Assembly (NCBI GenBank): GCA_963705725.1
Contig: CAVPKM010000007.1
Span: forward strand, 32,001-96,000
Reading direction: 5' to 3'
DNA: 64,000 nt
Source of the DNA: an uncultured Gammaproteobacteria bacterium
Lineage (GTDB): Bacteria; Pseudomonadota; Gammaproteobacteria; UBA6002
Shown: positions 34,497 to 64,000 of the stretch, piece by piece
Numbering within the stretch: position 1 is the first letter of the stretch
How the letters are laid out: every line of letters starts with the position of its first letter
Notes under the pieces: model-generated
What the model was told of the DNA's origin: nothing
Databases searched by the model: none
What the model saw: only the letters and a program-made list of their open reading frames with translations
Position numbers and translations under genes: made by a program

Positions 34497-36013
34497 GAGG
34501 CTATAAAATTTTTTGTGTAACTGGATTTAGTCAGTATAAACTAACTGAAACAAGGAGTACTGACTATGGCGACAAAACTCACTTCATTTGATCCGCAAAT
34601 GATAGATAATTTGATTAAGGACTGCAAAACCCAAGAAGATATGTTTGGCGAAGGAGGTCTTCTGAAAAACTTGACGAAGGCACTTTTGGAAAGGGCCATG
34701 CAAGGAGAGATGAGCAGCCACTTGGGCTACGAGAAAAATGAGGCTAAAGGTAAGAATAGCGGCAATTCTCGAAATGGATATTCAGAAAAAACTTTAAAGG
34801 GCGAAAATGGCGAATTTACTATCCAGGTACCGAGAGATCGAAATGCAGATTTTTCTCCCCAGATTGTTGCTAAGAACCAAACGCGTTTTGAAGGGTTTGA
34901 TGACAAAATCATCAGCCTTTATGCGAGAGGGATGACGACACGTGATATACAGGGGCAATTGCAAGAGCTCTATGGGGTAGAAGTCTCTCCTACTTTCATT
35001 TCCAATGTGACCAACGAAGTCATTGAGGAAGTGAAAACTTGGCAGTGTCGTCCCTTGGATAAACTTTATCCCATTGTTTACTTTGATGCCTTAATGATCA
35101 AAGTTAAAGAAGATAAGCGAGTGATTAACAAAGCCTTTTATCTTGCTTTGGGTGTAGATCTTGAAGGGCAAAAAGAATTACTGGGAATTTGGATTAGCCA
35201 AACGGAAAGTTCAAAATTTTGGCTCAATGTGTTATCTGAATTGCAGCATCGTGGTGTGGGAGATATTTTGATTGCTTGCGTTGATGGCCTTACGGGCTTT
35301 CCTGATGCCATTTCAACGGTATTTCCCAAGACCCAGGTTCAACTTTGCATTGTTCATATGATTCGAAATTCACTACGCTATGTTCCTTGGAAAAGCCGTA
35401 AGCAAGTGGCGGCGGATTTAAAAACGATTTATGGCGCAAAGACACTCGATGAAGCCGAATTATGTCTCGCTACTTTTTCCGAGAAGTGGGACGAGCATTA
35501 CCCTTCTATCAGTAAAAGTTGGCTGACTCACTGGGAAAATGTCACGCCTTTTTTTGGCTACTCTTCTGAAATTCGTCGCGCGATTTATACTACGAATGCA
35601 GTTGAATCCGTGAATATGAGCCTTCGGAAGGTTATTAAAAGTAAGCGCGTTTTTCCTTCGGATGATGCGGCTTTGAAGCAGCTATATTTAGCGCTTAAAA
35701 ATATTTCAAAAAAATGGACAATGCCAATACGAAATTGGGGTGATGCCATGAATCGTTTTATGATCCTGTTCGAAGACAGGCTAAAAGGAGCGATTTAGTT
35801 TAAGAACTGATTTAAAATTTTGTGCCTTCGATCGCCTGTGGATATATGCACAAACTGACTCGTTGCACTCGTCAGTATTGCGCACATACCCACAGGCACA
35901 ATAATTTTATTTGTTTATTTAAAAAATTTTTGTTATTTTAATTTCGCTATCTGGAATTCGGTAGCAAAAAATCTGCTGACTCAACCTGCTTACACAAAAT
36001 TATTTACGCTACC
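34497..36013 (+). mobile_element. Intact IS256-family element with 8-bp TSD TAAACCAA
   Basis: Imperfect IRs gaggctataaaattttttgtgtaac / cttacacaaaattatttacgctacc; TAAACCAA at 34489-34496 and 36014-36021. Confidence 0.95.
34566..35798 (+). CDS. IS256 (Mutator-type DDE) transposase
   Basis: [37 protein letters not shown]. Confidence 0.96.
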   Translation: MATKLTSFDPQMIDNLIKDCKTQEDMFGEGGLLKNLTKALLERAMQGEMSSHLGYEKNEAKGKNSGNSRNGYSEKTLKGENGEFTIQVPRDRNADFSPQIVAKNQTRFEGFDDKIISLYARGMTTRDIQGQLQELYGVEVSPTFISNVTNEVIEEVKTWQCRPLDKLYPIVYFDALMIKVKEDKRVINKAFYLALGVDLEGQKELLGIWISQTESSKFWLNVLSELQHRGVGDILIACVDGLTGFPDAISTVFPKTQVQLCIVHMIRNSLRYVPWKSRKQVAADLKTIYGAKTLDEAELCLATFSEKWDEHYPSISKSWLTHWENVTPFFGYSSEIRRAIYTTNAVESVNMSLRKVIKSKRVFPSDDAALKQLYLALKNISKKWTMPIRNWGDAMNRFMILFEDRLKGAI

Positions 36014-37518: not shown

Positions 37519-38853
37519 ATGGGGTTTATCATGAAATTAAGCATACGGGATTCAAAAAGAAAAATAATCATTCTAAATGTCGAGCCTAGGATGAGCGTTA
37601 TTGATTTAAGAATTAAGTTGTATGAACTAAATGACCAAATTGATGAAATCATTTTATACCCTGACGATACCGTTGAAAATGGCATCACACTTGAAAATAA
37701 TCAAACTTTAGAAAACTATGCGATCAATGAAAATAGCTTAATCAAATTAGCTCCTCTCCTTGAAATTCCCAGTGAATTTTTTTGTCCCGTTTCTCTGTGT
37801 ATTTTCTTAAAGCCAGTTAAACTGCCTTGTGGCGCCACCATAGAATGTGAAGTCATCGAAAAGCATATCAAGCTGGCAGGGACTTGCCCTTTTACTCGAA
37901 AACCACTCACTACAACAGAATTGATCAAAGACACTATTCTGGAAGATCGAGTTAACAAGTTATTTGAGCAACATAAAAATAGTGCTGCTATTGAAGTATT
38001 AAATATAAAAAGATATCAATTAGAGGCGCCTGCCTTAAGTTTTCAAAATGACAGTCCGAGAGGACCGAGTGAGCCAAGTACAGATGATCAATTAGCGATG
38101 CATGCAGATCAGCCACCATCGAATGAAAATCCTCTAACTCAGGCACTAAGCGTTGTCAGAATGATACTTTCACTTGAACCAAATTTATTTGAATACGTAC
38201 AACCAGAGAACACAATAGCAACAACTGAAAATCAATTAAATGCTTGGCAAGCAGGAGCGCTAGAAAAGTTGCAACATCGCGGCTTAACTGAAGAAATGCT
38301 ACGAGCCTATAATCATAATGATCACAAATTTGATAATCATCATGCCTTTGCATTGGAAACGCTAGTTGAAAGCCGAGAGTTTTCCATCCAAGAAGCACTA
38401 GCTGAAATTGAAGGCTTGTCAGGTCATCAAGCAGAGGGTATTCGAAGGGGTTTAACTCGCCCTGAAGTTATCGATATGAATATTTGGCAGATAGAAACGC
38501 TAGTAAGCCTTAAAAGCTATGGCCTGACAGCAGAAATGCTAAGAGCTCATTTTTATAATGTTCAAGAATTTCATGATGGTCATTGCTACGCCTTGAAAAA
38601 TCTAGTTCAAACTCGAGAGTTTTCCGTCCAAGAAGCACTAGATGAAATTGAAGGCTTATCACCCTATCAAGTAGGGCGTATTCGAAACGGTTCAACTCGT
38701 GCTGAAGCAATCAATACTGGCGAAGCAGCAGCTAACGGTGGCCGTCACATGGCTTTGTTACCTTTTTTTAGCACTCTCCGACCTCGTACTGTGGAACGAC
38801 AGACAGGAAGTAATTACTCAATTAACGATGGGGCATCAAATGCATTCAAATAA
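37519..38853 (+). CDS. Ubiquitin-like domain + U-box + two internal repeats; putative effector E3 ligase
   Basis: N-terminus aligns by eye to ubiquitin; U-box IPSEFFCPVS..KPV.LPCG....IEKH...TCPFTRKPL. Confidence 0.8.
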   Translation: MGFIMKLSIRDSKRKIIILNVEPRMSVIDLRIKLYELNDQIDEIILYPDDTVENGITLENNQTLENYAINENSLIKLAPLLEIPSEFFCPVSLCIFLKPVKLPCGATIECEVIEKHIKLAGTCPFTRKPLTTTELIKDTILEDRVNKLFEQHKNSAAIEVLNIKRYQLEAPALSFQNDSPRGPSEPSTDDQLAMHADQPPSNENPLTQALSVVRMILSLEPNLFEYVQPENTIATTENQLNAWQAGALEKLQHRGLTEEMLRAYNHNDHKFDNHHAFALETLVESREFSIQEALAEIEGLSGHQAEGIRRGLTRPEVIDMNIWQIETLVSLKSYGLTAEMLRAHFYNVQEFHDGHCYALKNLVQTREFSVQEALDEIEGLSPYQVGRIRNGSTRAEAINTGEAAANGGRHMALLPFFSTLRPRTVERQTGSNYSINDGASNAFK

Positions 38854-40590: not shown

Positions 40591-41109
40591 ATGATGAAAA
40601 ATAAAGAAAAGGTTATTATTTCAGTTCCCCCTAAACTTGCCACACCAAATGATTTATTACCTCATGGACGCCAAGAAATAGCAGCTGCTATCAACCCACT
40701 TGTTGCTGATTCATTTGCATTGTTCGTCAAGGTTAAAAATTTCCATTGGCATGTCTCTGGAAGTCATTATCGAGATTATCATTTACTTTTTGATGAACAC
40801 GCCACTCAGATCTTTGCAATGGTTGATGTGTTGGCAGAGCGTGTGAGAAAGCTAGGGGGAACTACTATTCGCTCTATTGCTCATATTAATCGAATACAAC
40901 AAATTTCCGATGATGATGAAAAATTTGTTGAACCAAGAGAAATGGTAAGAAGATTAATGCATGATAATGAAAGCTTTTTGAAAAACATGCGTAGTGCCCA
41001 TGAGGTATGCAGTAAATATAATGATTGCGCCACAACCAGCGTTCTTGAGGTATTTATTGACGAGACCGAACGCAGAGTTTGGTTCCTTTATGAAACCCAA
41101 ATTGAGTAG
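40591..41109 (+). CDS. dps: Dps-family ferritin-like protein
   Basis: KNFHWHVSGSHYRDYHLLFDE, DVLAERVRKLGG, ETERRVWFL. Confidence 0.92.
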   Translation: MMKNKEKVIISVPPKLATPNDLLPHGRQEIAAAINPLVADSFALFVKVKNFHWHVSGSHYRDYHLLFDEHATQIFAMVDVLAERVRKLGGTTIRSIAHINRIQQISDDDEKFVEPREMVRRLMHDNESFLKNMRSAHEVCSKYNDCATTSVLEVFIDETERRVWFLYETQIE

Positions 41110-41180
41110 GCATATGGGTAACATGTTTCAACTTATAATATATTCTTTTTTTGGTCTTACACATAGCGTGAGGTAATTTT

Positions 41181-41912
41181 ATGAAAAATCATCTGCATTT
41201 ATGCCATAATTTATGGTCAAAATTTTTTATTGCTACATTCATTGTTTCAACATTAGCTCTATCCTATCAGTCTCAAGCTGAAAATAAATCTCCCTCCACT
41301 TTACAAACTAAAGCTTTAGCTAATGTGAAATTACCTAATCCTGTCTATAGTAGCCATACATCAATTGAAGAGGCTTTAAAAAAACGTCGATCAATCAGGG
41401 AGTACAAAAATAACCCTATCACATTGCAACAATTAGCTCAGTTACTTTGGGCTGCGCAAGGTATTACTTCTGCTAAGGGATTTAGAACAGCCCCTTCAGC
41501 AGGCGCTTTATATCCTATCGAAATTTATGTTCTGAGTGGAAATGTTAAAGGTTTAATGCCAGGTGTGTATCGTTATCTCCCTAAAAAGCATGTGCTGGAG
41601 CTTCTAGCTAAAGACGATATCCGTTCAAAATTAGCAACAGCAACTTTTAATCAAAGTGGTGTGACTAATGCAGCAGCAGATATCCTCATTACTGCAGCCT
41701 ATGCAAGAACCACTGCTAAATATGGAAATCGTGGAGAACGGTTTGCACAAATGGAAGCAGGCCAGGTAGCAGAAAATATATGCTTACAAGTCACTTCACT
41801 AGGACTTGGAACAGTCACAATTGGTGTCTTCAATGATTCAAAAGTTAAAGCGTTAATGAATTTTTCCAAAGATGAATATCCATTATATATTATGCCGGTA
41901 GGAAAAATATAA
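41181..41912 (+). CDS. SagB/nitroreductase-family protein with signal peptide
   Basis: RRSIREY, LLWAAQG, RTAPSAGALYP, EAGQVAEN. Confidence 0.88.
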   Translation: MKNHLHLCHNLWSKFFIATFIVSTLALSYQSQAENKSPSTLQTKALANVKLPNPVYSSHTSIEEALKKRRSIREYKNNPITLQQLAQLLWAAQGITSAKGFRTAPSAGALYPIEIYVLSGNVKGLMPGVYRYLPKKHVLELLAKDDIRSKLATATFNQSGVTNAAADILITAAYARTTAKYGNRGERFAQMEAGQVAENICLQVTSLGLGTVTIGVFNDSKVKALMNFSKDEYPLYIMPVGKI

Positions 41913-41920
41913 ATTAATAT

Positions 41921-41956
41921 ATCCTCTTAAGTTGCATGCGATTAACTTAAGAGGAT
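41921..41956. terminator. Stem-loop after nitroreductase gene
   Basis: atcctcttaagtt...aacttaagaggat. Confidence 0.55.
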
Positions 41957-42132
41957 GAAACTAGGACGCCGACCAGCTGCTTTCATTTGAATATTGTTGA
42001 ATAAAATAAATTTATGAAATCTGGAGTTTTAAACGATCCAGAAAATTTTAAGAGAACAAACTTTATAAATTTTTTTTGAACAGAGGGGTGTCATAACAAT
42101 AACCAAGAAAAATATGAAAAAAAGGAAATGAA

Positions 42133-42804
42133 ATGAAAGTATTAATGATATTAACTTCTCATGACCAATTAGGCGATACCGGTCAAAAAACTGGGTTTTG
42201 GCTCGAAGAATTCGCTGCACCTTATTATGTTTTTAAAGACGCCGATATCGAACTAACTTTAGCTTCACCCAAGGGTGGGCAACCTCCAATCGATCCCAAA
42301 AGTGACTTGCCTGAAAATCAAACTGCAGCAATTCAAAGATTTAAGAAAGATGATGAAGCAAACAAAGCACTTTCACAAACAGTAACGTTAACGGATCTAA
42401 AAGCAGAGGATTTCGATGCTATCTTTTATCCCGGCGGTCATGGTCCGATGTGGGATCTTGCCGAAAATTTAATTTCTATCAAACTTCTCGAATCTTTTTA
42501 TAGTCTTGGAAAACCCGTTGCTTTAGTTTGTCACTCTCCCGGAGTCCTTCGCCATGTCATGAATAAAGGTATACCTCTGGTAAAAGGAAAACGTGTAACG
42601 GGTTTTGCTAATAGTGAAGAGGCAGAAATCAAGCTCACCACCGTTGTTCCTTTTCTTGTGGAAGATGAATTAAAGAGATTAGGAGGATGTTACGAAAAGG
42701 CTTTAAATTGGCAAAGTTTTGTTGTTATTGATGGGCATCTTATTACAGGTCAAAATCCTGCTTCTTCTGCAGCAACTGCTGAAGCATTACTGAAAATGCT
42801 ATAA
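42133..42804 (+). CDS. DJ-1/PfpI (Hsp31-like) glutamine-amidotransferase-like protein
   Basis: TGFWLEEFAAPYY, PGGHGPMWDL, VCH, ITGQNPAS. Confidence 0.9.
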   Translation: MKVLMILTSHDQLGDTGQKTGFWLEEFAAPYYVFKDADIELTLASPKGGQPPIDPKSDLPENQTAAIQRFKKDDEANKALSQTVTLTDLKAEDFDAIFYPGGHGPMWDLAENLISIKLLESFYSLGKPVALVCHSPGVLRHVMNKGIPLVKGKRVTGFANSEEAEIKLTTVVPFLVEDELKRLGGCYEKALNWQSFVVIDGHLITGQNPASSAATAEALLKML

Positions 42805-42922
42805 TTTCGGAGTATAGCAAGAAGTTTGGATAAAACTTTGTTATTCTATGCTGTTTATCAATTTAAAAACGTTTTGGTATACCTTTGTGGCTTATGCTAG
42901 AGCAAGAAGAGTAGGGGAAGCC

Positions 42923-43444
42923 ATGATATTAAAGACTGCAAGGATAGACACAGTTTTAGGCCCGATGATTGCTATATCCGATGATACATCACTTTACTTG
43001 CTAGAATTTGTTACCAGAAGAGGATTAGAGCGAGAGGTAGAGCGCTTAAGGCATCGAGGGTTTGCCATGGTTCCTGGAAATGCCTTGCCACTTACCTCCA
43101 TAGAAACTGAGTTAGCAGCCTATTTTGAAGGAAAGCTTACTCAATTTAAAACACCATGCCGGACATTTGGTAGCCCTTTTCAGCAATTAGTATGGCAAGT
43201 GCTATGCCAAATTCCTTATAGCGAAACGAGAAGTTATGCAGAGCAATCGATTTGTTTGGGAAAACCAAGCGCATACCGCGCTGTCGCCAATGCGAATGGA
43301 GCCAATCAATTAGCAATTATTATTCCTTGTCATCGCGTTATTGCAAGTGATGGCTCACTGGGTGGGTATGGCGCTGGGTTAGCGGTAAAGCAATGGTTGA
43401 TTGAACATGAAAAACGACATAAAAAAGTATTAAAAAGTGAGTAA
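42923..43444 (+). CDS. ogt: O6-methylguanine-DNA methyltransferase (Ogt/Ada C-terminal type)
   Basis: RAVANANGAN, IIIPCHRVI. Confidence 0.88.
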   Translation: MILKTARIDTVLGPMIAISDDTSLYLLEFVTRRGLEREVERLRHRGFAMVPGNALPLTSIETELAAYFEGKLTQFKTPCRTFGSPFQQLVWQVLCQIPYSETRSYAEQSICLGKPSAYRAVANANGANQLAIIIPCHRVIASDGSLGGYGAGLAVKQWLIEHEKRHKKVLKSE

Positions 43445-43455
43445 AGGTAATAGGT

Positions 43456-44706
43456 TTATTGTCGAATCAATCGGAAATTCAAGCCAGGTAAATTGACTTT
43501 CTCTGTCGTTCGATAAGGATTAATATCTAAGCCACCGCGTCTTGTATAACGTCCATAAACCGTGAGTTTTTCTGGGCTGCAACGATTCATGATATCCATA
43601 AAAATGCGCTCAATGCATTGCTCATGAAATTCATTATGATTACGAAAAGAAACAAGATACTGAAGCAAACCTTCTCGATTGATTTGTTTTCCAGTATATG
43701 CAATTTGCACACTACCCCAGTCTGGTTGATTTGTGACTAAGCAATTAGACTTTAATAAGTCAGAATACAAAATTTCTTCTACCGTGTTATCTTTTACCGA
43801 GAGATAATTGGGTTCAACAAGATAGACGGAGCAAGTCACATCTAGGTCATCAATACACTCGCCTTTTGGCGCTGATTGAATTGTAGCAAGCGTTTTTTCT
43901 TTTAAAGATAGCAGTCTTACCTGAACCTCTCCATTTACACGGGAGCTCAAATCACGTTCGACAGTCAACCTAACTTCTTCGCTGTTGGTAAACTGTGTGT
44001 TATTGAACGAATTAAAATAAAGTTTCAATGATTTTGACTCAATTAAATTGTCTGTTGCACAATCTAAATTAATGTTAGCAATCGCAACAATGGGTTTGCC
44101 TTTTTTATTGAGCCATGACACTTCATAATGATTCCAACAATCAAAACCATAAAAAGGAAGATTTTGGGGGTCAACGCCAATTTCTTTCCGTTTGGACTCC
44201 CTTGGAATTGCAAATAACCGTTCTGGATTATAATGCAAATCATAGCTGGATGACTGACCTAATTCAGATTGTCTAAGACCAGCTTGATATCGTTTTTCTA
44301 ATGTTTCATTCATACGCTGACTCTCCAAAATATTGATAATTTGTAATGAACTATACCAGTTCACAAGTACTCCTGCCTTAATCTGATTGGCAATATAGAT
44401 CGTAAGCCTTGCAGCCTCATGGATACAATGTGCTTTCTCCTTCAAAGCTTCCGCCTGAAGGTGCATAGAAGGCAACACCTCAAACTCAGGCCGTTCTAAA
44501 ATTTTTTTAATGGAATCTAATGAAAACCCTAGGAATTTTAAAGTGGCCACTTGTTGTAATCGGATTACATCCTCATCTGAGTACAAGCGATAACCTGCAT
44601 CAGTTCGAAAAGAGGGTTTTAACAAACCAATCTCATCGTAGTATTGCAACGAACGAATACTTAATGCCGTCATTTGACTGATATCTTTAATTTTATGGTA
44701 TTTCAT
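43456..44706 (-). CDS. queF: Fusion: MerR-family HTH + bimodular QueF (preQ0 reductase)
   Basis: IRSLQYYDEIGLLKP..RTDAGYRLY; ESKSLKLYFNS, KSNCLVTNQPDW, EFHEQC, TRRGGLDINP. Confidence 0.9.
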   Translation of the reverse strand: MKYHKIKDISQMTALSIRSLQYYDEIGLLKPSFRTDAGYRLYSDEDVIRLQQVATLKFLGFSLDSIKKILERPEFEVLPSMHLQAEALKEKAHCIHEAARLTIYIANQIKAGVLVNWYSSLQIINILESQRMNETLEKRYQAGLRQSELGQSSSYDLHYNPERLFAIPRESKRKEIGVDPQNLPFYGFDCWNHYEVSWLNKKGKPIVAIANINLDCATDNLIESKSLKLYFNSFNNTQFTNSEEVRLTVERDLSSRVNGEVQVRLLSLKEKTLATIQSAPKGECIDDLDVTCSVYLVEPNYLSVKDNTVEEILYSDLLKSNCLVTNQPDWGSVQIAYTGKQINREGLLQYLVSFRNHNEFHEQCIERIFMDIMNRCSPEKLTVYGRYTRRGGLDINPYRTTEKVNLPGLNFRLIRQ

Positions 44707-44723
44707 TTTGACTCCTGAATTGG

Positions 44724-44754
44724 AGTTTATGCTATCACGCAAGGTGAAGGTCAA
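44724..44754 (-). promoter_or_regulatory. MerR-type promoter with 19-bp spacer and dyad
   Basis: Minus strand TTGACC-ttcaccttgcgtgatagca(19)-TAAACT; TCAC-N5-GTGA palindrome in the spacer. Confidence 0.8.
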
Positions 44755-44854
44755 GAAAAATTATGAGGAAAAAGCCAGGTCAGTGTTTTTCACTGGGTAG
44801 TGTTAGGTAAATAATTTATGGTACAGTCGTTACGAGAAAGCAAAATAAGCTAAC

Positions 44855-45341
44855 CTTAATTTTTCACATTGCTTTTTTTAAAAAATCTGCCACTATAGGA
44901 CACACGAGCGGGAAATTCCCGCCCGTGCGGAACCACTAAGGTGTTAGCGCGCCTAAGGGGTTCTAGCCACAAATTAACCTAACAACACGAGGTTAACTCA
45001 TGACTAACACTAGAATATCACCTATTTGCGCAAACGCGCAAAGTCCTTTTTCTTATTCCTCCCATTTTTTGCCAAACACAAAAGCAAATTCTACCCGTAA
45101 ACCCTCGGTTAGCCGTGAGCATTTGTGGCCGGCGACAGTTTGCTTAGTTTGGCAAGAGGGGTGGATGTTCTCAAGTAACAGGACAATATTCTAAGCAGAG
45201 GGGGATTGATGGCGGGTTGGCTTACTTCCCGCCTTCAATTTTTGAACACAAACCATTGTGCTCAACCTCTCTGCTGTGTTCAGACCTGTAGATAGGTTTT
45301 GCACTGCATTAAGGAAAATCTATGCAGTCGCCTTCAATTCG
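44855..45341 (+). repeat. Structured leader element, copy 1 (~490 bp, contains 64-codon ORF 45000..45194)
   Basis: Colinear with 51458-51946; hairpins retained despite substitutions. Confidence 0.88.
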
Positions 45342-46174
45342 AAGCGAAATTTCCAATCTTGAGGAAGTGCTATAGATGAAGAGGAAATCATTCAGTTATT
45401 CAAGAATCAATCAACAATTGATCCCTATACCAATAAAGTTGTAAAAGCGAAATCTGAATGTGAAGGTCGTCCCATAACACTGTTTGGTTTTCCTAACAGA
45501 GAGCGTGCGGCAAGAATTGAACTTAAATGGCACAAAAAAGTCATCCATAAGTTTTTTAGAGTGGGTGAGCCCTTAGCAGAAGGAAAACAATCAACACCAT
45601 TTTTAATATGGTTAACAACTGTATTGAACAAAAGCATCAAAACCCCATTCCTATCCAAGGCTACTCTAGGCGCAGCTTTATTATTGCGAGTCTAAAATTC
45701 TTACGCATTATGGCGATATGCCAGAATTAATTTTCATGTTGGGGATGACTAAAATTAAACTACTCGAGTAAATTCCGTGACGCAAAGGCAGAAGGGGATT
45801 TAAAATGAGGGCTCCCAATTATGGACATTGCATATGGTGAGGATGTATTAATAGGCTTTCGAACTTTATCATGCCTAAAAGGGATAGAAATCCAGATAAC
45901 CCGCAAGTGCGCTATAAAAAATTTCTTGAGATTTTTAAAGAACGATTAGCTACGATGGAGCCTTTTAGCCATTTGGATTTGAACAAATATGGAAATATCC
46001 TGATTGGTGTAGAGCCGGAGGCAAATGAATCTGATGAAAAAACACAAAACAACCTTCATCTGTTAAGGAGCATTATAATCAATCAGGTTTTTCTAACCTG
46101 ATAAGATTTGAATTTGTGAGCCATTATATTTCCTTCTAACTAGATAGTTGTGAATAGTGAAAAACATGAACGAA

Positions 46175-46637
46175 TTTTTTGCTACTCTCCTGAAATTTGT
46201 CGCGCGATTTATACTACGAATGCAGTTGAATCCGTGAATATGAGTCTTCGGAAGGTCATTAAAAGTAAGCGCGTTTTTCCTTCGGATGATGCCGCTTTGA
46301 AGCAGCTATATTTAGCGTTTAAAAATATTTCAAAAAAATGGACAATGCCAATACGAAATTGGGGTGATGCCATGAATCGTTTTATGATTCTGTTCGAAGG
46401 CAGGCTAAAAGGGGCGATTTAGTTTAAGAACTGATTTAAAATTTTGTGCCTTCGATCGCCTGTGGATATATGCACAAACTGACTCGTTGCACTCGTCAGT
46501 ATTGCGCACATACCCACAGGCACAATAATTTTATTTGTTTATTTAAAAAATTTTTGTTATTTTAATTTCGCTATCTGGAATTCGGTAGCAAAAAATCTGC
46601 TGACTCAACCTGCTTACACAAAATTATTTACGCTACC
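46175..46637 (+). mobile_element. IS256 3' remnant including right IR
   Basis: Near-identical to ~35550-36013. Confidence 0.92.
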
Positions 46638-46669
46638 AATATTATTTCTATAAAAATTAAAGAGTTATC

Positions 46670-48154
46670 TTGATATTAAAATTTAAAATCTTTTTTTTTG
46701 TATTTTTAGCCACAATTTTTTGTAATTGTTCTGCAAATACAGCTGAAAGTAAAACAAAACATTACCTATTAAAGCCTAGTGGTGAATATTGCGTATCTTT
46801 TGAAGATATACATCTATTAAATACCACTCTTTGTCCTGACCCAAATTTTAATGGTAAGAATGATGCGGACTTTAGCTCAGGGAATAAAGTGCACTGCCAT
46901 GAAATCATGGTCAGGATATATTATCCTACTAGAGAGTTAAATCAAAAAGCACCTTACAATTCTCCTTTTATTAAACAGTTGCAGGATAATATTAAAAACT
47001 CTAAGGATGGCTCTATAAATTTGCAACAGTCCTTAAATGAAATTTATAGTAATACATCTGAAAAAAAATCGGCTATTGATAATAAAGCCTTCCCGATTAT
47101 TTTTTTTAGCCCGGGTTTAGGTTGTTCTGTACAAACTTACGAGAACATTATTACTGAGCTAGTCAGTCATGGATATATTGTGGCTGGAGTGAATACCCCC
47201 TTTTTAAGCGGTAGTATTGAACTCCCTAATCATTATATTGTTAAACCAGTCATACCCCGTTCTACGGATGAGATTGAGAAGTCTTTTATCAATATACAAA
47301 GTAAGGATCTGGAGTTTTGTATTAATAATATTAAAAATTGGAAACATTTACGTGCATATAAAAATATGGACTTTATACACGTAGGCGCTTTTGGACATTC
47401 CATTGGCGGTAGAATTGTAGCAAATTTAACTCATTCGCAATCAAATAAGCTACAAGCCGCAGCTGCTATGGATACGGCAATCGATCCTTCAGGAGATTCG
47501 TTGAGAGGATTTGCTATCCCTTTTATGCATGAAATTGCGGCAAATAAGCTCTCAATTTCCTCATCTCCCTTAAGCTTTGTGCTAAATCAAAATGGCTTTT
47601 TGGTTCATATCTCACCTAGCCCTAATGATAAAAATTACAGTTACCACATGAATTTCTCAGATTTTTCCACCTTACAATATCAGCCAGCTGTTAAGGTTTT
47701 TCTTAATTCTTTGAAACAAAATTCGGAGAAGGATTTTAATATCAAAATTCATCAAAATTCAGTCAATGATGAAATATCACTTGGTTTGGATGAGGAGACT
47801 TATCTTTTAGCTAAAAGAAATAGCAAATGGGAATTAACATACTACAAAGGAAGAAAGAAAATAATAGATCTTGATATTATGAATATTAAAGGACTCAGTG
47901 CGCTGCTAGCCCCTTTAAACAAGCCTAAAGAGTTGAACGCTGCAAGATTAAAACAAGTTAAATTCTCTTTAACTTGTTTTAGAAAAAACATGAATGAACT
48001 AGTGGGTATAGGCAATGGCTGGGAGCTAACAAAATCTATTAATACCCATTTGATAGCTTTTTTTGATACTTTTTTAAAAGGGCAAGATAATATATCATTC
48101 AAGCAGTGTCAGCCCTTAACAACGAATGTTTATATTAAATGTAACCTAAGGTGA
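46670..48154 (+). CDS. Secreted alpha/beta hydrolase (PAF-acetylhydrolase-like)
   Basis: Signal peptide, FPIIFFSPGLG, ELVSHGYIV, GHSIG nucleophile elbow, HMNFSD. Confidence 0.82.
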   Translation: MILKFKIFFFVFLATIFCNCSANTAESKTKHYLLKPSGEYCVSFEDIHLLNTTLCPDPNFNGKNDADFSSGNKVHCHEIMVRIYYPTRELNQKAPYNSPFIKQLQDNIKNSKDGSINLQQSLNEIYSNTSEKKSAIDNKAFPIIFFSPGLGCSVQTYENIITELVSHGYIVAGVNTPFLSGSIELPNHYIVKPVIPRSTDEIEKSFINIQSKDLEFCINNIKNWKHLRAYKNMDFIHVGAFGHSIGGRIVANLTHSQSNKLQAAAAMDTAIDPSGDSLRGFAIPFMHEIAANKLSISSSPLSFVLNQNGFLVHISPSPNDKNYSYHMNFSDFSTLQYQPAVKVFLNSLKQNSEKDFNIKIHQNSVNDEISLGLDEETYLLAKRNSKWELTYYKGRKKIIDLDIMNIKGLSALLAPLNKPKELNAARLKQVKFSLTCFRKNMNELVGIGNGWELTKSINTHLIAFFDTFLKGQDNISFKQCQPLTTNVYIKCNLR

Positions 48155-54933: not shown

Positions 54934-57900
54934 ATGCAATACAAGCAGCAAGCGTATCCCTTTAGTTTAATTTCAAGTAAGGGATTAGGAAAAACCTACT
55001 CGTCCTTCGATAAAATTGGACCGCTTCTGCCGATGAAAGGATTTGGCGCGGCAGGATTAACATTTTATCCGAATGTGGCAATAGGGAACTTATTTTTTCA
55101 AGACCATATGCTAAAAATTGAAGAGCAGGGCGGGATCCTTGAGCTTGGGTTTATTTACAATAGTCAAGCAGCAAGCGTGGATCCGGTTTGGCAGTTTGCG
55201 CATCCTAAATTTTATTTGTTATCGCGTTATTCTCAGCAAGTAGTGCTTTCTGAAGCAGATGGCTATCGTACAATCTATACGTTAGATCTCAAAAGCGGTT
55301 TTTTTTATAGTGAGACAGGCTCAAGAAAGGGAATCGCTTGGCTTTATTATCAGGAAGCCAATCAGCAATGGGTGCATTATCGACCTTTTGATCAAGTGAC
55401 GGAATATTTTAATGCGGAAGGATTGCTAGTAAAGCGTGAAACGAAAGCCGGTAACATCACAATCTATTATTATGATGCGTATTTACGCTTAAAAGAAATC
55501 ATTGGTGCAAGTGGTAACCGGTATAAATTTCACTATCAAGAAAATACACTTTCTCTTTATTTAGTGACGCTTGATTCCTCCGAGCAATTGTTGCAATCCT
55601 ATTTGTTTGATCTTGAGGGAAGACTTACCTTAAGCCAAACGCCGGATGGGTATCAAACCCAGTATTTTTACAGTGAAGTGTCTGCTCGGCAATTATTGGC
55701 GGTGAAACAATCTGACCAAACGATGTTAGGTTTTGGTTATGATCATTCCAATCGATTAGTGGAATGTTGTTTAGGCGATGCCTCCACGTTTACTTTGCAG
55801 TATCCAAATGAAACACAGCCGGATTTTTTGTTCAGCGATCCTGTTGGTGGCACGACCTCACTCAAGCTAAATGACCAGGTAGCTATCATTGAAATTGCGC
55901 GATCTCAAGGTATCGGTGCTGATTTTAAGGAAAAATTGATTACCGCCTATCATTACAATGCGCTGACACAACTGACGCTTATCCTTCATCCTAACCAGGG
56001 CCAGGAAGGCTTAAGTTATACCGATCGCTTTGGGTTGGTGCGCCTGAACGAAGGGCCAAATGGGCAAATGGTCGAGCAGGTCTATGAAGAAGAAGCGATG
56101 GCTGTTCGTTTGGTTGCTGACATTCAGTATGAAACGGTTCATGGCAGAAAAAATACGCTTTTAGCGACTTATTATGTTTATGACACCGATTTTAATCATC
56201 AATATACTTTTTTACGATTTAAGATTAACCCCTTAGGCAACGTGACGGAATATCGTCCGGATCGATGTGGCAATATTGCATCTGAACGAACCTATTTGGG
56301 CGGGATTTTTGATCGAAATCAGCGAGATCCCCGCCAGGCGCCGACTTTATCAGAGATAAAAGCTTGGGTGAGCCTGCAAGATGCCGCTAAGGTGAATTTA
56401 GTTGCCTATGAATATAATCTGAGAGGGCAATGGCAACATTACTGTCAATACGCTGAGGTCGATCAAGCAGGAAAGGGGAAACTCGATGAAGCCATGGGTC
56501 AGATTTATACCTTTCGAACGCTGTATGGGGAACCTTTTTTTAAGCAGGTGAAACAAAATAATATTCAGGCAGCAGTGACCCGGCAGCGCTTTGATGCGCT
56601 AGAGCGCCTGCTGAGTAGGACCGATGCCCTTAATCAAACCACGACGGATGACTATTTTGATGCTAAAGGCCAGGTAAAAATCATTTATCCGAATGGGAAA
56701 ATTGAGATTCGGCAACAAGATGCGAGAGGAAATGGCGTTTCCCTGCAAGAGATCGTAGCGGAACAAGAGAGACTCACGCAGTATCGGCGAGATGCAAACG
56801 GGCGGGTGGTATTAACGACCAGGCCCGATGGGGAGTTTCTTTATACTTTTTTTGATCATCAAGATCGCCTCAAGTTTTGTGTCACAGCGCTTGGAATCGT
56901 CACCCAGCAGGTTTATGCGGTTAAAAACCGTTTTGTTTCGACCACCGTTTATGCCAAGTGCATTGATACTCGGCAATTATGGCCGAGTGATCCGCCACCA
57001 CCTGGCTCCCTGCCGCAAGTTGATCGCTTGATCGCCTTATTGCCGGGTATTGCGGATGAGAGTATTGATCAAACACATTATACCTTTTTTGATTTTTCTG
57101 ATCGCCCGATTTATGAGGTGGATGAGGAAGGGTATGTCACGCAATTTCAGTACAATGCGCGCAATCAAAAGCGGGTTGAGATTGCGTATGCCAACCCTTT
57201 AGAGGATGAGCAGTTAGCGGAGTTAAAAGCAGGAAAGACACTTGCTCTTCCCATTGATTTCAATCAAGACCGAGTAAAACGGGATTTCTATGATAATAGT
57301 GGCGCGCTAATTGGTGAGCAGAATAGCGCAGGTTATGTGACTGAGTATGTGTTAGATGGGGCAGGAAATACGAAAGAATGCATTCGATATCACACCCCGA
57401 TGCCGCTTGATTTAGCACTACGCGATTTTGATCAAGTGCGGCCAAATGCTGCTTTACTCGATGCGCATACCTATTATTTTCGCAATAGCAAAGGAGCGCT
57501 GGTCGGACAATTCGATCCCGCAGATAGATGGGGAGAATATTATTATACGGCGCATCACGCTTACCCCAATGGCTTAATCCAAAAAAGTATTCGATATAGC
57601 ACTAAGGTGAGTTTTCCTCTGCTTCTGCCCCCTCCAGCCAATCCCGAAGCCGATGAAATCACTCTCTATCGCTATGATCTATTAGGTAGGCTTTTAGAGA
57701 CCGTTTTTCCGAATCAGAAAAAAGACCGTCTTCAATATAATGTGTCGGGTAACGTGATTTCAGCTAAATCTCAGGATTTACACTTTCCTGACTTGATGGA
57801 TCCTGATCATCAGCGAGCCAGGCATGCGCATTACGATGCTTGGGGCCAAAAAGTTAAGGAAACGAATGAGTTTGATGGGGAAATCTTCCATCATTATGAC

Positions 57901-60900
57901 CCGATAACCGGGCTGAAAACCCATACCACGGATGCCCTAAATCGGACCACGTATTATTTTTATGATCTTGATCAACGGTGGGTGGCCTCAGTCAATCCGG
58001 TAGGGGCAGTAGTGAAATACGAGCGGGATGCGTTTGGGGAGCGAATTAAAACGATTCGTTATGCCACGCCTGCTAAGGGAATCCCTACAGGGGGTTACCT
58101 CACGCCAGAGATTGAGAAACACTTTATTGCGGATCCTGAAAAAGACCAAGTGGTGTTATTCAAACGCAATCGTTTGAGCCAAGTTGTAGAGCAAATCGAT
58201 GCGAAAGGCAACATGAGCACGTTTAAGCATAATGGCTTTAAGCAAGTAGTGGAAAAAAATTTACCGGTAGCAGGTCCCCATCCGACGTTGAGGTTATCCC
58301 ACGAATTTGAAGTGCGTGGATTAGCGATTAACACGCGGATTGAAGCACTGGATACCCCGGTTGAGCACATTGAGCGGGCTTATGCGAATTTTTATGGCAA
58401 AGAGACTTATAAAAAAGATGCGCGTGGCGGGGTTTATCGTACGTTTTATGGTTGTCGCGGTTTAGTGAGTCAAAAAATTCAAGAAAGCGGCGCTGGCGAG
58501 GCGAGTCATTTTTTCACTTATAATGCGTTTGAAGCGTTGGCTACTGAAACCGATGCGTTGAATCAGACTACCACCTATCACTACAATCATCTGGCCCGTC
58601 AACATACTCTGCATTTCCCGGTTCATGGTGTCACGCAAACCCTTATCCACAATATTTTTGATGAAAAAATTCAGGAAACGGACAGTTTGGGCAATCGCCA
58701 ACGCTTCGAGCATGCAGCAAATGGTCAAGTGCAGATTGATGAAGATCCACTGGGACACATCACGCGTAGCGAGTTTGACCTGATGGGGCAGCTCGAGAGC
58801 AAGATTGATGCTAAGGGAGTGGAAACAAGGTTTAAATACAATGAAGCGGGGGATCTATTATTCCAAATTGAAGATGCGGCGGGCTTAGGGCTTCAAACCC
58901 ACTATCAACGCGATGTGTTTGGCAATGCGCTGCAAATCACGAATCCCCGTCAAGTCGTCACGCAAAATACCTATGACCAAACAAACTGCTTAACTTCAAG
59001 CGTGCTGGATGCGATTGATTCCGGTTTAAATTTAACGATTCATCCCACTTACAATGCAATGGGAAAGGAAGAGGGCAAGCAGCAAGGCGATAAGGTTAAC
59101 CCTTTGCAGTATGAAGAAAAATATCCTCTCGATGGCCGTGGTCGACAGATCGGTAAAACCCTCGATCCAACTGGCTTAGCGCTCGCTGCTCACCAGCACT
59201 TGAATGCAGCAGGAGACGTTATTGCTGAAGTGGATTTCAATGGCAATGTGACGCGCAAATTTTATGATGATTTCGGGCAGCTTCGTTTTGTGGTGGACCC
59301 AGAAGGTGGGGTGACTGAGACAAATTATGATCTTGTGAATCGAATCCATTATACGCGTCTTTATGAAAAAAGCATTAATCCGGATCAACTGACCGATCAA
59401 ACCGATCTTCACACCTTGTTAGGGTTAGTCGAGGTAGATTCGCAAGATAGCATCCTGTTTTATTTTTATGATGCAGATGGGTTAGCGCGGTTTGAAGTCA
59501 ACGGGTTAGGAGTAGTGGCGGAAGGTGCTACGACCTAGCGCGCCGTAGAATCAAGACAATCCATTATGCCACGCCGATTAACCCCGCGCTGTTGCCGGTC
59601 CTAACCACGGCCGCACTGAGCAGGCTGGTCAAACTGGAAGAAAAAAATCCCAAAAACCGCATCTCATATTTTATTTTAGATGCAAAAGGCCAGCAGCGAT
59701 TTTGCATTGATGCTGAACATTATCTCTCTGAACAGCGCTATGATGCCAATGGAAATGGGATTGCCAACATTGCCTATGCGCATCGCCTTGCTGATCCAGA
59801 GAAAATTGCTCGACTCGCGCCACTTGAGGTATTAAAAAATATCACGCTCGATCCTTTACTCGATCGCACCAGCTATCAGGTTTTTGATCACGTAAACCGA
59901 CCGGCATTTCGTGTGGATGGGGAAGGGGCGGTCACACAATATTTTCATGATGAAAATGGAAATCTTATTCAAACGTGTCAATATGCAACCAAAATTGCGG
60001 TGCCAAGTGAGTACCAAGACTTAGTGATTCGATTAAGGCAATTGACACCGAGTCCCCAGATTGATCGCATTAATGAATACAGATTTGACCACGCCGATCG
60101 TCAAATTGGCGAAAAAGATCCCTTGGGTTATGTGGATGAATTTAGAAAAGATGCGGTAGGAAACACGATTTTGCATCGTGATCGTGCAGGCAATGATTGG
60201 GGATATCAGCATGATGGGGCCAATCGCTTAACCCTTGAAACGCTGCCAAAGGTGGGTGTGACCGCTATGACAAAAAAGATCGCGCATAACCAGGTGACAT
60301 TGTCTGACCAAACCCGCGACATGGCCATTGAAAATAAAAAAATTTTAGATGCCAATGGCAATGAAACACAAATCATCCGAGCGGCGAATACGGATGCCCC
60401 AAGAATTCTCCACTGTACTTACAATAAGCGCCGTCAACTTGTTGGAACGCGCATGAATCAAGTGCTGATTGATGATGAAACGAAAGCCCCAAGCTTTGAT
60501 TTCCCGCCGGTTAAAGTCGTCGATCTCACTACCCAGATTGTTTATAACGCAAAAAAATTAAAAGTTTGTCAGCAGGATGAATCCGGCAATTGGTCTTTTT
60601 TTGTTTATGATTGTGAAGGCAATTTATGTGATGAGGTCGATCCCCTTGGCGCGGTCAAGCAGTATGAATACAGTGCCTTTGGAGAGGTGATCCACGAAAG
60701 GGCCTTTGCCACTCCCATTCAGTTAGATTTAGCGCTTTTTACGCAAACCGGTATTCCGCTTTCAGTGATTCAAGCACCCGGCGTGATCGAACCCAGCCTT
60801 GATGATCGTCTAAAAACCTATGTGCGGGATAATCGTGGTGATATTATCTTAATTGAACAAGGTCCCACCTTCTATTATTTGCCAAACGGCAGCGATCAGC

Positions 60901-63900: not shown

Positions 63901-64000
63901 CCACTTATTCTTTTACGGTATCCAAGGGCAGTCAACTTTATCCCAGTAGTCCTTTGCCGGCACCTGAACCTATTCATGTGTTGCCGAGTCAGCATTTTGA
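54934..64000 (+). CDS. Giant YD/RHS-repeat protein (>3000 aa), one frameshift at ~59522, runs off right edge
   Basis: YD repeats throughout; after ORF 54934..59538, frame 3 from 59523 reads RCYDLARRRIKTIHYATP and was open at the points checked (62.3, 62.8, 63.3-64.0 kb). Confidence 0.85.

What the first reader, a model, noticed from the sequence alone, without database searches (positions are those of the whole stretch)
43456..44754. MerR-QueF fusion with its own 19-bp-spacer MerR promoter and possible internal start
Seen: a MerR HTH/coiled coil (~130 aa) runs in frame into a complete QueF with catalytic Cys/Asp and the EFHEQC motif. Upstream is TTGACC-19-TAAACT with a TCAC-N5-GTGA dyad. An internal Met (MNETLEK, ATG at 44313) has GGAG 9 nt upstream. 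Known: MerR activators bind dyads in 19-bp spacers, TipA makes long and short products from one gene, and queuosine genes are often controlled by preQ1 riboswitches. Inference: QueF replaces the effector domain, giving an autoregulated protein sensor of preQ0/preQ1 or NADPH.
Basis: partly seen in the sequence, partly recalled or inferred. Interest (0 to 1): 0.75.

Follow-up and report, generated by a model that had tools for sequence, protein, structure and literature searches.

The report
Self-regulated MerR–QueF fusion gene
A tRNA-modification enzyme (QueF) is fused to a TipA/Mta-type DNA-binding switch that sits on its own promoter, a design conserved across Legionella and its relatives, so these bacteria probably control this enzyme with a protein sensor rather than the usual riboswitch.

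Summary
The gene (window 43456..44706, minus strand, 416 aa) joins a MerR DNA-binding domain and coiled coil to a complete type II QueF. Its catalytic Cys, His and Arg are intact, and it is the only QueF in this genome.

- **Conservation:** the same architecture is intact in 24 of 149 sampled Legionellaceae genomes and in 109 of the 120 best protein clusters. No locus has two adjacent genes instead.
- **Promoter:** all 26 fused loci with upstream DNA carry TTGACY, a 19-bp spacer and TAnnnT, with the dyad CTCACGTnACGTGAT. This is the published TipA/Mta/SkgA operator type, and it occurs once per genome, so the protein most likely regulates only itself.
- **Internal start:** Met132 is invariant. 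The GGAG 9 nt upstream is held by synonymous-site selection. Lineages that lost the MerR part start exactly there.
- **Selection:** both halves are under purifying selection (dN/dS 0.04–0.22).
- **Origin here:** this genome probably acquired gene plus promoter by horizontal transfer.

My reading is a TipA-like, single-gene, two-product autoregulated system in which QueF replaces TipAS. The effector (preQ0 is my guess) and the two products are inferred, not shown. I found no description in print.

The parts
43456..44706 (-). MerR-QueF fusion CDS, 416 aa plus stop. The real start is ATG 44706.
   Evidence: P0001 (416 aa) is identical. It is the only QueF match in the genome.
44749..44754 (-). 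-35 hexamer TTGACC
   Evidence: Read. TTGAC[CT] is present in 26 of 26 fused loci.
44730..44748 (-). 19-nt spacer holding the operator dyad. The window has TTCACCTTGCGTGAT; the family consensus is CTCACGTnACGTGAT.
   Evidence: It has the same register and sequence type as the tipA, mta and skgA promoter probes printed in PMC7762955.
44724..44729 (-). -10 hexamer TAAACT
   Evidence: TAnnnT lies at this distance in 26 of 26 loci.
44712..44715 (-). Shine-Dalgarno GGAG of the long product, 5 nt before the ATG
44494..44694 (-). Winged helix-turn-helix of the MerR module (residues 5-71)
   Evidence: Pfam MerR_1 and MerR. Nearest solved chains are MtaN 1jbg (E 2.4e-21), TipAN 2vz4, SkgA 7cla and BmrR.
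44377..44478 (-). Long helix (residues 77-110), the MerR dimerisation coiled coil
   Evidence: AlphaFold2 model helix 77-110, block pLDDT 75-81. It aligns to the MerR-DNA-bind region.
44284..44358 (-). Two short helices (residues 117-127 and 131-141) carrying the conserved NW...I..ILE...M motif. They are candidate equivalents of the TipA alpha6-alpha7 switch.
   Evidence: Model. They align with stand-alone MerR relatives L006-L008. The TipA alpha6-alpha7 role comes from PMC7762955 passages.
44323..44326 (-). Internal Shine-Dalgarno GGAG, formed by the Leu127-Glu128 codons TTG GAG, 9 nt before the internal ATG
   Evidence: Glu128 is GAG in 25 of 25. Leu127 is xTG in 23 of 26, the highest of 45 conserved Leu columns.
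44311..44313 (-). Internal in-frame ATG (Met132), the candidate start of a 285-aa QueF-only product
   Evidence: Met is present in 26 of 26. Unfused descendants L119 and L121 start here with GGAG-N9 retained. Public records annotate both 416-aa and 285-aa forms.
43459..44274 (-). Complete bimodular (type II) QueF domain, residues 145-416
   Evidence: TIGR03138 scores 401.9 bits. It is 51% identical to Vibrio cholerae QueF with TM 0.94 and rmsd 1.8 A.
43741..43743 (-). Codon of the catalytic Cys322, which aligns to V. cholerae Cys194
   Evidence: Alignment. The residue is invariant in A1.

Best explanation
This is a single-gene, self-regulated system of the TipA/Mta design in which the drug-binding TipAS domain has been replaced by the enzyme QueF, the NADPH-dependent preQ0 to preQ1 reductase of queuosine synthesis.

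The 416-aa long form dimerises through its MerR coiled coil. It binds the dyad inside the 19-bp spacer of its own promoter. By the MerR 'activation by distortion' mechanism it switches that otherwise poor promoter on. This step is inferred from family membership and from conservation of the operator.

The same mRNA probably also yields a 285-aa QueF-only product from the conserved internal GGAG-N9-ATG. That would be the bulk enzyme, as TipAS is the bulk binder. This is inferred from synonymous-site conservation and from descendants that start there.

The most likely signal is the substrate preQ0 bound in the QueF domain of the long form. Accumulating preQ0 would induce the enzyme that removes it, and the enzyme's action would shut induction off. 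This last step is a guess at about 35-40%. The NADPH/NADP ratio, the product preQ1, or thiol oxidation of the active-site Cys are alternatives.

In this genome the gene is the only QueF. It arrived with its promoter as a self-contained cassette by horizontal transfer from a Legionella-like donor.
For: - **Architecture:** MerR plus complete QueF lie in one frame. QueF Cys322, His361 and Arg390 correspond to V. cholerae C194, H233 and R262 and are invariant.
- **Pathway context:** this is the sole QueF in G000, and QueC, Tgt and a PTPS/QueD are present.
- **Conservation of the fusion:** 109 of the 120 best clusters carry both MerR and QueF Pfam domains. Of 149 scored Legionellaceae genomes, 24 have an intact full-length frame. 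Among 1.84 billion 50%-identity representatives there is one full-length fused cluster.
- **Never split:** no MerR hit lies beside any of about 80 unfused queF loci.
- **Selection:** dN/dS is 0.04-0.22 for the MerR part and 0.05-0.12 for the QueF part, in the 7 pairs where dS could be computed.
- **Promoter:** 26 of 26 fused loci have TTGACY-19-TAnnnT with CTCACGTnACGTGAT. This is the same type as the tipA, mta and skgA probes in PMC7762955.
- **TipA/Mta class:** MtaN is the best solved match of the N-domain.
- **One site per genome:** the window site scores 38.0 bits against 15.8 for the next best in G000. In five complete Legionella-family genomes the pattern is no more frequent than its reversed control, and the best hit in each is the site at this gene.
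- **No riboswitch:** Rfam finds no preQ1 riboswitch in the window, and the leader is only about 10-20 nt.
- **Internal start:** Met132 is present in 26 of 26. Glu128 is GAG in 25 of 25, against 5-21 of 23-26 at the 11 other conserved Glu columns. Leu127 is xTG in 23 of 26. Unfused L119 and L121 keep GGAG-N9-ATG as their start. Stand-alone relatives have an aligned Met with a purine-rich stretch before it.
- **TipA precedent:** TipA systems put sensor, activator and neutraliser in one gene with two translation products (PMC7762955). TipA binds its ligand covalently (PMC9909328), and QueF forms a covalent thioimide with preQ0 (PDB title 4f8b).
Against: - There is no experimental or expression evidence. 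No sequencing run was listed, so neither the transcription start nor the two products are shown.
- The QueF domain is a fully intact enzyme, so nothing in the sequence requires a sensing role.
- Model residues 144-153, between the MerR part and QueF, have pLDDT below 50. A floppy tether would argue against tight allosteric coupling.
- The MerR part was lost at least twice in lineages nested among fused ones, so the regulation is dispensable.
- The window's own operator is the second weakest of the 26 (38.0 bits; range 37.3-49.3) and has two changes in the left half-site.
- The conserved internal Met and GGAG could be a relic kept for reasons other than initiation.
Confidence: 0.6

Rival explanations
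1. The fusion is an artefact. An assembly or sequencing indel merged a merR gene with a downstream queF.
For: The genome is a 20-contig draft. Reads could not be inspected.
Against: The same uninterrupted frame is found in 24 of 149 sampled genomes, several of them on megabase contigs, and in 109 of the 120 best clusters. No relative has two adjacent genes. Both parts are under purifying selection.
Confidence: 0.01
2. The protein is a regulator and an enzyme but not a sensor. The MerR module binds its operator and sets a fixed or simply self-limiting level of transcription. QueF is only a passenger enzyme, and no small molecule is sensed through it.
For: QueF is catalytically complete. The inter-domain linker is predicted to be disordered. 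In the passages read from PMC7762955, TipAN alone binds the tipA promoter more tightly than full-length TipAL (44 against 380 nM), so a MerR N-domain can engage its operator without a liganded C-domain. From recall, MtaN alone activates constitutively. The MerR part is dispensable in several lineages.
Against: A 19-bp-spacer promoter with a strictly conserved dyad is the hallmark of ligand-switched MerR activation (PMC9909328). The alpha6-alpha7-like segment, which is the switch in TipA, is conserved (N116, W117, L127 and E128 are invariant). It is hard to see why a constitutive activator would be kept fused for so long.
Confidence: 0.22
3. It is a redox or stress switch. The signal is the NADPH/NADP+ ratio, or oxidation of the active-site cysteine, not a 7-deazaguanine.
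For: QueF binds NADPH. A Cys55-Cys99 disulfide form of B. subtilis QueF has been solved (PDB title 5udg). Several MerR members sense oxidative stress (PMC9909328). The neighbours here are stress-type genes (Dps-like ferritin, nitroreductase, DJ-1/PfpI, methylguanine methyltransferase), although synteny is not conserved.
Against: There is no conserved regulon beyond the gene itself, which fits pathway homeostasis better than a stress response. The neighbours differ between genomes.
Confidence: 0.12
4. The MerR part is a decaying remnant. Only the 285-aa QueF from the internal start matters.
For: Many public Legionella pneumophila records annotate only the 285-aa form. Some lineages lost or broke the N-terminal part: G136 has 2 TGA, G150 is truncated, and L119-L121 are deleted.
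Against: dN/dS of the MerR part is 0.04-0.22. There are 25 invariant positions within residues 1-131 across 20 proteins that are 57-81% identical to the window's. The operator is conserved in 26 of 26 loci.
Confidence: 0.04

Closest known systems
TipAL/TipAS of Streptomyces lividans and the TipA class (Mta, SkgA)
   Same: The N-terminal domain is nearest to MtaN, TipAN and SkgA. [quoted passage not shown] The promoter is autoregulated with a 19-bp spacer. There is an in-frame internal start for a C-terminal-only product. The whole system is one gene (PMC7762955 passages). The ligand of the C-terminal module binds covalently to a cysteine in both (PMC9909328; PDB title 4f8b).
   Different: There is no TipAS domain: Pfam PF07739 is not found, and QueF_N plus QueF are found instead. 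The C-terminal module is a housekeeping enzyme of tRNA modification, not an antibiotic binder. The presumed ligand is an endogenous metabolite.
AlbA/AlbAS (albicidin-responsive, self-upregulating MerR factor with a short ligand-binding product)
   Same: It is a self-upregulating MerR gene that also gives its ligand-binding domain alone (I saw only the start of the abstract in the listing).
   Different: It is a drug-binding domain in Gram-negative bacteria, not an enzyme. I did not read the paper.
Trigger enzymes with a built-in DNA-binding domain (PutA, BirA, NadR; recalled, not checked here)
   Same: One polypeptide is both an enzyme of a pathway and the transcription factor for that pathway's own gene.
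   Different: Those are repressors with other DNA-binding folds. Here the domain is a MerR-type activator acting within the promoter spacer, with a probable second, enzyme-only product.
preQ1 riboswitch control of queuosine genes
   Same: Both control 7-deazaguanine metabolism by sensing a pathway intermediate, if the effector guess is right.
   Different: The sensor here is a protein and acts at transcription initiation. No Rfam riboswitch is found in the window, and the leader is too short to hold one.
Stand-alone bimodular QueF (Vibrio cholerae, E. coli type)
   Same: The fold matches at 51% identity with TM 0.94, and the catalytic Cys, His and Arg are the same. TIGR03138 scores above its cut-off.
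   Different: It carries about 144 extra N-terminal residues with a DNA-binding module and its own operator.

Membership tests
MerR family of transcription regulators | [quoted passage not shown] | tested here: met
   Pfam MerR_1 scores 58.6 bits (cut-off 21.6) and MerR 44.2 bits (cut-off 28.2). Solved MerR chains match.
MerR family of transcription regulators | Long dimerisation helix after the HTH | tested here: met
   The model has a helix at 77-110.
MerR family of transcription regulators | Target promoter with a 19-20 bp spacer and a palindrome inside it | tested here: met
   Present in 26 of 26 loci. The criterion comes from PMC9909328.
MerR family of transcription regulators | Ligand-switched activation by DNA distortion | not testable with these tools
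   Needs EMSA, footprinting or in vitro transcription.
TipA class (TipAL/TipAS, Mta, SkgA) | TipAN-like N-domain and TipA-type operator in its own promoter | tested here: met
   MtaN E 2.4e-21 and TipAN E 3.6e-14. The operator was compared with the probes printed in PMC7762955.
TipA class (TipAL/TipAS, Mta, SkgA) | C-terminal TipAS antibiotic-recognition domain (PF07739) | tested here: not met
   Absent, where QueF_N and QueF are found instead. A genuine TipAS hit was obtained for L093 with the same search, so the search can detect the domain.
TipA class (TipAL/TipAS, Mta, SkgA) | Two translation products from one gene through an in-frame internal start | tested here: inconclusive
   The ATG and GGAG are conserved with synonymous-site constraint, and descendants start there. 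There are no protein or ribosome data.
QueF, bimodular type (TIGR03138) | Score above the curated cut-off over the full model | tested here: met
   401.9 bits against 293.45, model positions 4-275 of 275.
QueF, bimodular type (TIGR03138) | Catalytic Cys, plus the His and Arg probed by mutant structures | tested here: met
   Cys322, His361 and Arg390 align to V. cholerae C194, H233 and R262 and are invariant in A1.
QueF, bimodular type (TIGR03138) | NADPH-dependent reduction of preQ0 to preQ1 | not testable with these tools
   Needs an enzyme assay. Being the sole QueF in a genome that has QueC, Tgt and PTPS argues for activity.
preQ1-riboswitch-controlled queuosine genes | A preQ1 riboswitch in the leader | tested here: not met
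   Rfam at gathering thresholds finds only a tRNA in the window. An E-value scan of 44700-46700 gives nothing relevant.

The most novel reading that the evidence does not exclude
The long form is a protein sensor of preQ0. Covalent thioimide formation at Cys322 in its QueF domain relieves a TipA-like autoinhibition and fires its own 19-bp-spacer promoter. The internally initiated short form is the bulk enzyme that consumes the signal. This would be the first transcription-factor sensor of a 7-deazaguanine and a portable one-gene 'substrate-induced enzyme' cassette, one that has moved between bacterial orders with its promoter.
Probability: 0.3. Interest if true: 0.8.

Novelty: new variant of a known kind. 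Interest (0 to 1): 0.66.

Why it matters
Control of queuosine precursor synthesis is known mainly through preQ1 riboswitches. A protein-level, MerR-type switch built into the enzyme itself would be a different solution. It is present across Legionella and its relatives. Public Legionella pneumophila records carry the gene both as a 416-aa and as a 285-aa protein, always named QueF, so the DNA-binding half is hidden in the short annotations.

It also extends the TipA 'minimal autoregulated system' from antibiotic binders to a metabolic enzyme. That gives a clean natural case of domain swapping behind a conserved DNA-binding and switch module. It also offers a compact candidate part for preQ0/preQ1 biosensors. 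The prediction is directly testable with one protein and one 31-bp DNA.

Tried and rejected
- **Reads and expression:** The look-up of sequencing runs listed no run for 43400-44900, and no RNA holder was listed.
- **Dimer model:** Complex prediction for the homodimer found the queue full and was then declared unavailable. No dimer model was made.
- **The search for related loci in genome contigs:** I obtained the Legionellaceae loci through the genome search instead.
- **A regulon beyond the gene:** none was found. In the matrix scan of G000, the second-best hit is the promoter of a separate TipA-class paralogue. In five complete genomes the pattern count is no higher than its reversed control.
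- **Split-gene relatives:** none were found.
- **Other DNA-binding domains fused to QueF:** five N-terminally extended QueF representatives carry no extra Pfam domain, and a sixth protein scanned with them (P0233) is a fragment of the MerR fusion itself.
- **Synteny with other fused loci:** none.
- **Taxonomy check with the 1534-aa ORF:** it turned out to be an RHS-repeat protein and was uninformative. I used UvrB instead.
- **Standard promoter scan:** a 16-18 nt spacer scan finds no ordinary promoter upstream of the gene and does not see the 19-bp one.
- **Literature:** searches for 'QueF' with 'MerR', 'QueF' with 'Legionella', 'preQ0' with 'MerR', and '7-cyano-7-deazaguanine reductase' with 'Legionella' gave no paper on the fusion. 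The only co-occurrences I opened (PMC13602947, PMC12632869) were incidental. Subscription journals and domain-architecture databases were not searchable.
- **Earlier notes of this scan:** none fit.
Full report
**What is there.** On the minus strand a single open frame runs from 44754 to 43456. The TTG at 44754 is the -35 hexamer read as a codon. The real start is the ATG at 44706, preceded by GGAG at 44715-44712, and the protein is 416 aa. Pfam finds MerR_1 and MerR at the N-terminus and QueF_N plus QueF in the C-terminal two thirds. NCBIfam's equivalog model for bimodular QueF (TIGR03138) scores 401.9 bits against a cut-off of 293.45, over model positions 4-275 of 275. My query carried one extra codon, so residue numbers are one too high. 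Numbers below are for the 416-aa protein.

**Structure of the two halves.** The QueF part is 51% identical to Vibrio cholerae QueF, and the AlphaFold2 model superposes on it with TM 0.94 and rmsd 1.8 A. Cys322, His361 and Arg390 align with the residues mutated in the solved C194A, H233A and R262L structures. They are invariant in 20 fused proteins that are 57-81% identical to the window's. The N-terminal part is nearest to MtaN (E 2.4e-21), then to a Listeria MerR-like protein, TipAN, SkgA and BmrR, which is the multidrug or TipA branch of the family. The model shows the HTH, a long helix at 77-110, two short helices at 117-127 and 131-141, and a low-confidence linker at 144-153 before QueF.

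**The fusion is not an artefact.**
- Of the 120 best clusters in 5.8 billion proteins, 109 carry both MerR and QueF Pfam domains. Those with source names are Legionella species, Fluoribacter (F. gormanii, F. dumoffii) or an unclassified gammaproteobacterial MAG; the Legionella ones include L. adelaidensis (81% identical), L. longbeachae, L. micdadei and L. pneumophila.
- In a sample of 151 genomes of the family that holds one such locus, 149 were scored and 137 have a QueF match. An intact full-length fused frame is present in 24 genomes, and one of these has two copies.
- Four more genomes have a copy that is cut by a contig end (G104, G019), broken by two TGA (G136) or N-terminally truncated (G150). 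The rest have QueF alone.
- A tblastn of the MerR part against all held loci found no MerR gene beside any unfused queF, so the 'two separate genes' state was not seen.
- In 1.84 billion 50%-identity representatives there is a single full-length fused cluster. Five other N-terminally extended QueF representatives carry no recognisable extra domain. The architecture is therefore lineage-restricted.
- Both halves are under purifying selection. Nei-Gojobori dN/dS is 0.04-0.22 for residues 1-131 and 0.05-0.12 for residues 145-416, in the 7 of 11 chosen pairs that could be computed. Two pairs were dropped for unequal length and two had saturated dS.

**The promoter.** I extracted the DNA upstream of every non-duplicate fused locus that had any: 26 loci including the window. 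L096 is cut at the contig start, L116 has a broken frame, and the second copy in G130 had no locus, so these were left out. All 26 show TTGAC[CT], exactly 19 bp, then TAnnnT, lying 47-60 nt before the ATG. The near-invariant block is CTCACGTnACGTGAT, beginning right after the -35 hexamer.

The window's copy reads TTGACC-TTCACCTTGCGTGATAGCA-TAAACT. It is the second weakest by matrix score (38.0 bits; range 37.3-49.3). It is still far above the next site in the 1.58-Mb genome, which scores 15.8.

The methods of PMC7762955 print the 26-bp tipA, mta and skgA promoter probes. They have the same layout and the same half-sites. By my count, the mta probe matches the window in 20 of 26 positions and differs from locus L108 in one. 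According to the MerR review PMC9909328 (passages), 19-20 bp spacers with a palindrome inside are the family's signature, and the long spacer is required for regulation. A standard 16-18 nt promoter scan finds no other promoter upstream.

**Regulon.** The second-best matrix hit in G000 (C13:194118) is the 19-bp-spacer promoter of a separate, ordinary TipA-class gene of 253 aa with a TGACG-type dyad. In five complete genomes of the Legionella family, the 15-nt pattern with up to 2 mismatches occurs no more often than its reversed control (3-11 against 11-16), and the best hit in each is the site at this gene. The simplest reading is pure autoregulation.

**The internal start.**
- Met132 (ATG 44313-44311) is present in all 26 fused genes.
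- The Leu127-Glu128 codons are TTG or CTG followed by GAG in most of them, which puts GGAG 9 nt before the ATG (for the 23 that matched my pattern; for all 26 after alignment).
- Glu128 is GAG in 25 of 25, and the single Lys is AAG. At the 11 other conserved Glu columns GAG is used in 5 to 21 of 23-26.
- Leu127 ends in TG in 23 of 26. This is the highest of 45 conserved Leu columns, and the next highest is 17 of 26.
- Neighbouring third positions vary freely. These sequences are related, so the counts are not independent events. However, synonymous sites are near saturation between most of them.

Two of the unfused genes nested among fused ones, L119 and L121, begin at exactly this ATG and keep GGAG-N9. 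L119 also keeps a few codons of the former linker in front.

Stand-alone MerR proteins of related genomes (L006-L008, 315-347 aa, C-terminal part without Pfam match) align with residues 1 to about 140 of the fusion. The alignment includes the NW...I..LI...M motif with the Met in register. L006-L008, and L009, which is near-identical to L007, have purine-rich stretches before that ATG and their own 19-bp-spacer promoters. The internal start therefore looks inherited from a TipA-like parent, and the junction with QueF lies just after it.

Public records of the Legionella pneumophila orthologue exist both as 416-aa and as 285-aa proteins, all named QueF.

**History.** A quick maximum-likelihood tree of the QueF domain used 51 rows. 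Six loci were dropped because my motif filter missed them, and the careful search did not finish. It puts all 27 fused rows in one clade of 34 (SH-aLRT 96) together with 7 unfused rows. The window sits in a clade of 9 (support 98) with 5 fused and 4 unfused rows, including L. fairfieldensis. Well-supported branches force at least 2 changes of state. With the remnants in L119, this reads as one gain followed by repeated loss of the MerR part.

**Arrival in this genome.** The window's genome does not belong to that family.
- Its UvrB, on the same contig at 30097-32100, is 82-83% identical to its three genus-mates but 69-71% to two Legionella-family genomes.
- The fusion is 81% identical to one of the latter. 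Two genus-mates have an unfused QueF of 53-56% identity, and none was found with this query in the other two.
- Neighbouring genes are not shared with any other fused locus.
- About 90 nt upstream of the promoter a 500-bp repeat begins, followed by an IS256-type fragment.
- Synonymous divergence from the nearest relative is already about 1.1-1.2.

So the gene came with its promoter as a unit, but not recently. It is now the only QueF in a genome that has QueC, Tgt and a PTPS/QueD homologue.

**How it most likely works.** Three things are shown: the architecture, its conservation, and the conserved operator and internal start signals. Two things are inferred from family rules: the long form binds the dyad as a dimer and activates the over-long promoter by distortion, and the mRNA also gives a QueF-only product. 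This is the logic described for TipA, where sensor, activator and neutraliser are in one gene with two translation products, and where the alpha6-alpha7 segment transmits ligand binding (PMC7762955 passages).

The signal is a guess. I favour preQ0, the substrate, which QueF binds covalently through the active-site cysteine (PDB title 4f8b). This parallels TipA's covalent ligand, and it would give substrate induction with built-in shut-off. Three observations weigh against tight coupling: the disordered linker, the intact enzyme, and the repeated loss of the MerR part.

**Comparison and novelty.** The protein meets the tested criteria for the MerR family and for bimodular QueF. It shares the N-domain, the operator, the autoregulated promoter and probably the two-product design of the TipA class. 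It fails the class's defining TipAS domain, so it works like a TipA system without being a member. I found no paper describing it in four targeted full-text searches. Subscription journals could not be searched. I rate it a new variant of a known kind.

Noticed in passing
window 44842-45340: A stretch of about 500 bp that starts about 90 nt upstream of the fusion's promoter occurs three times in the genome, with the other copies on C7 and C10 at 84-86% identity. It has no long ORF and no Rfam match, so its nature is unknown.
   Followed up: partly
window 46175-46637 (and an intact copy at 34566-35798): The 3' end of an IS256-type (Transposase_mut) element is repeated at least 8 times in the genome at about 98% identity. 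The copy here is a fragment, and an intact 410-aa transposase lies 10 kb away.
   Followed up: partly
G000 contig C13, around 194118 (minus strand), outside the window: An ordinary TipA-class gene of 253 aa, similar to L093 which has a TipAS Pfam hit, has its own TTGACT-19-TATCGT promoter and a TGACG...CGTCA dyad. The genome therefore holds two TipA-type promoters with different half-sites.
   Followed up: partly
L006:1498-2445, L007:895-1938, L008:1492-2535, L009:880-1923: These stand-alone MerR proteins of 315-347 aa come from genus-mates. Their C-terminal 180-220 residues match no Pfam family. Each has a 19-bp-spacer promoter with a dyad, and an internal Met preceded by a purine-rich stretch. 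They may form another two-product TipA-like class with an unknown ligand domain.
   Followed up: partly
window 37519-38853; 54934-59538; 59592-63998: A U-box domain protein of eukaryotic type, as in effectors of intracellular bacteria, and two very large RHS-repeat proteins lie in the same window.
   Followed up: no
G130 (C6 and C8), G136:C1:2982373-2983551, G150:C1:358707-359762: One Legionella-family genome has two fused copies. One has a fused copy broken by two TGA plus a partial second QueF. One has a copy lacking the first 65 residues. These are snapshots of gain, duplication and decay.
   Followed up: no
cluster of P0064: The Legionella pneumophila orthologue is deposited both as 416 aa and as 285 aa, with the 285-aa form on the larger number of contigs. 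Automatic annotation therefore often hides the MerR half.
   Followed up: partly
window 40591-43444: The fusion is flanked downstream by a run of stress or repair genes on the other strand: a Dps-like ferritin, a nitroreductase, a DJ-1/PfpI protein and a methylguanine-DNA methyltransferase. The last of these ends 11 nt from the fusion's stop codon, so the two genes converge.
   Followed up: no
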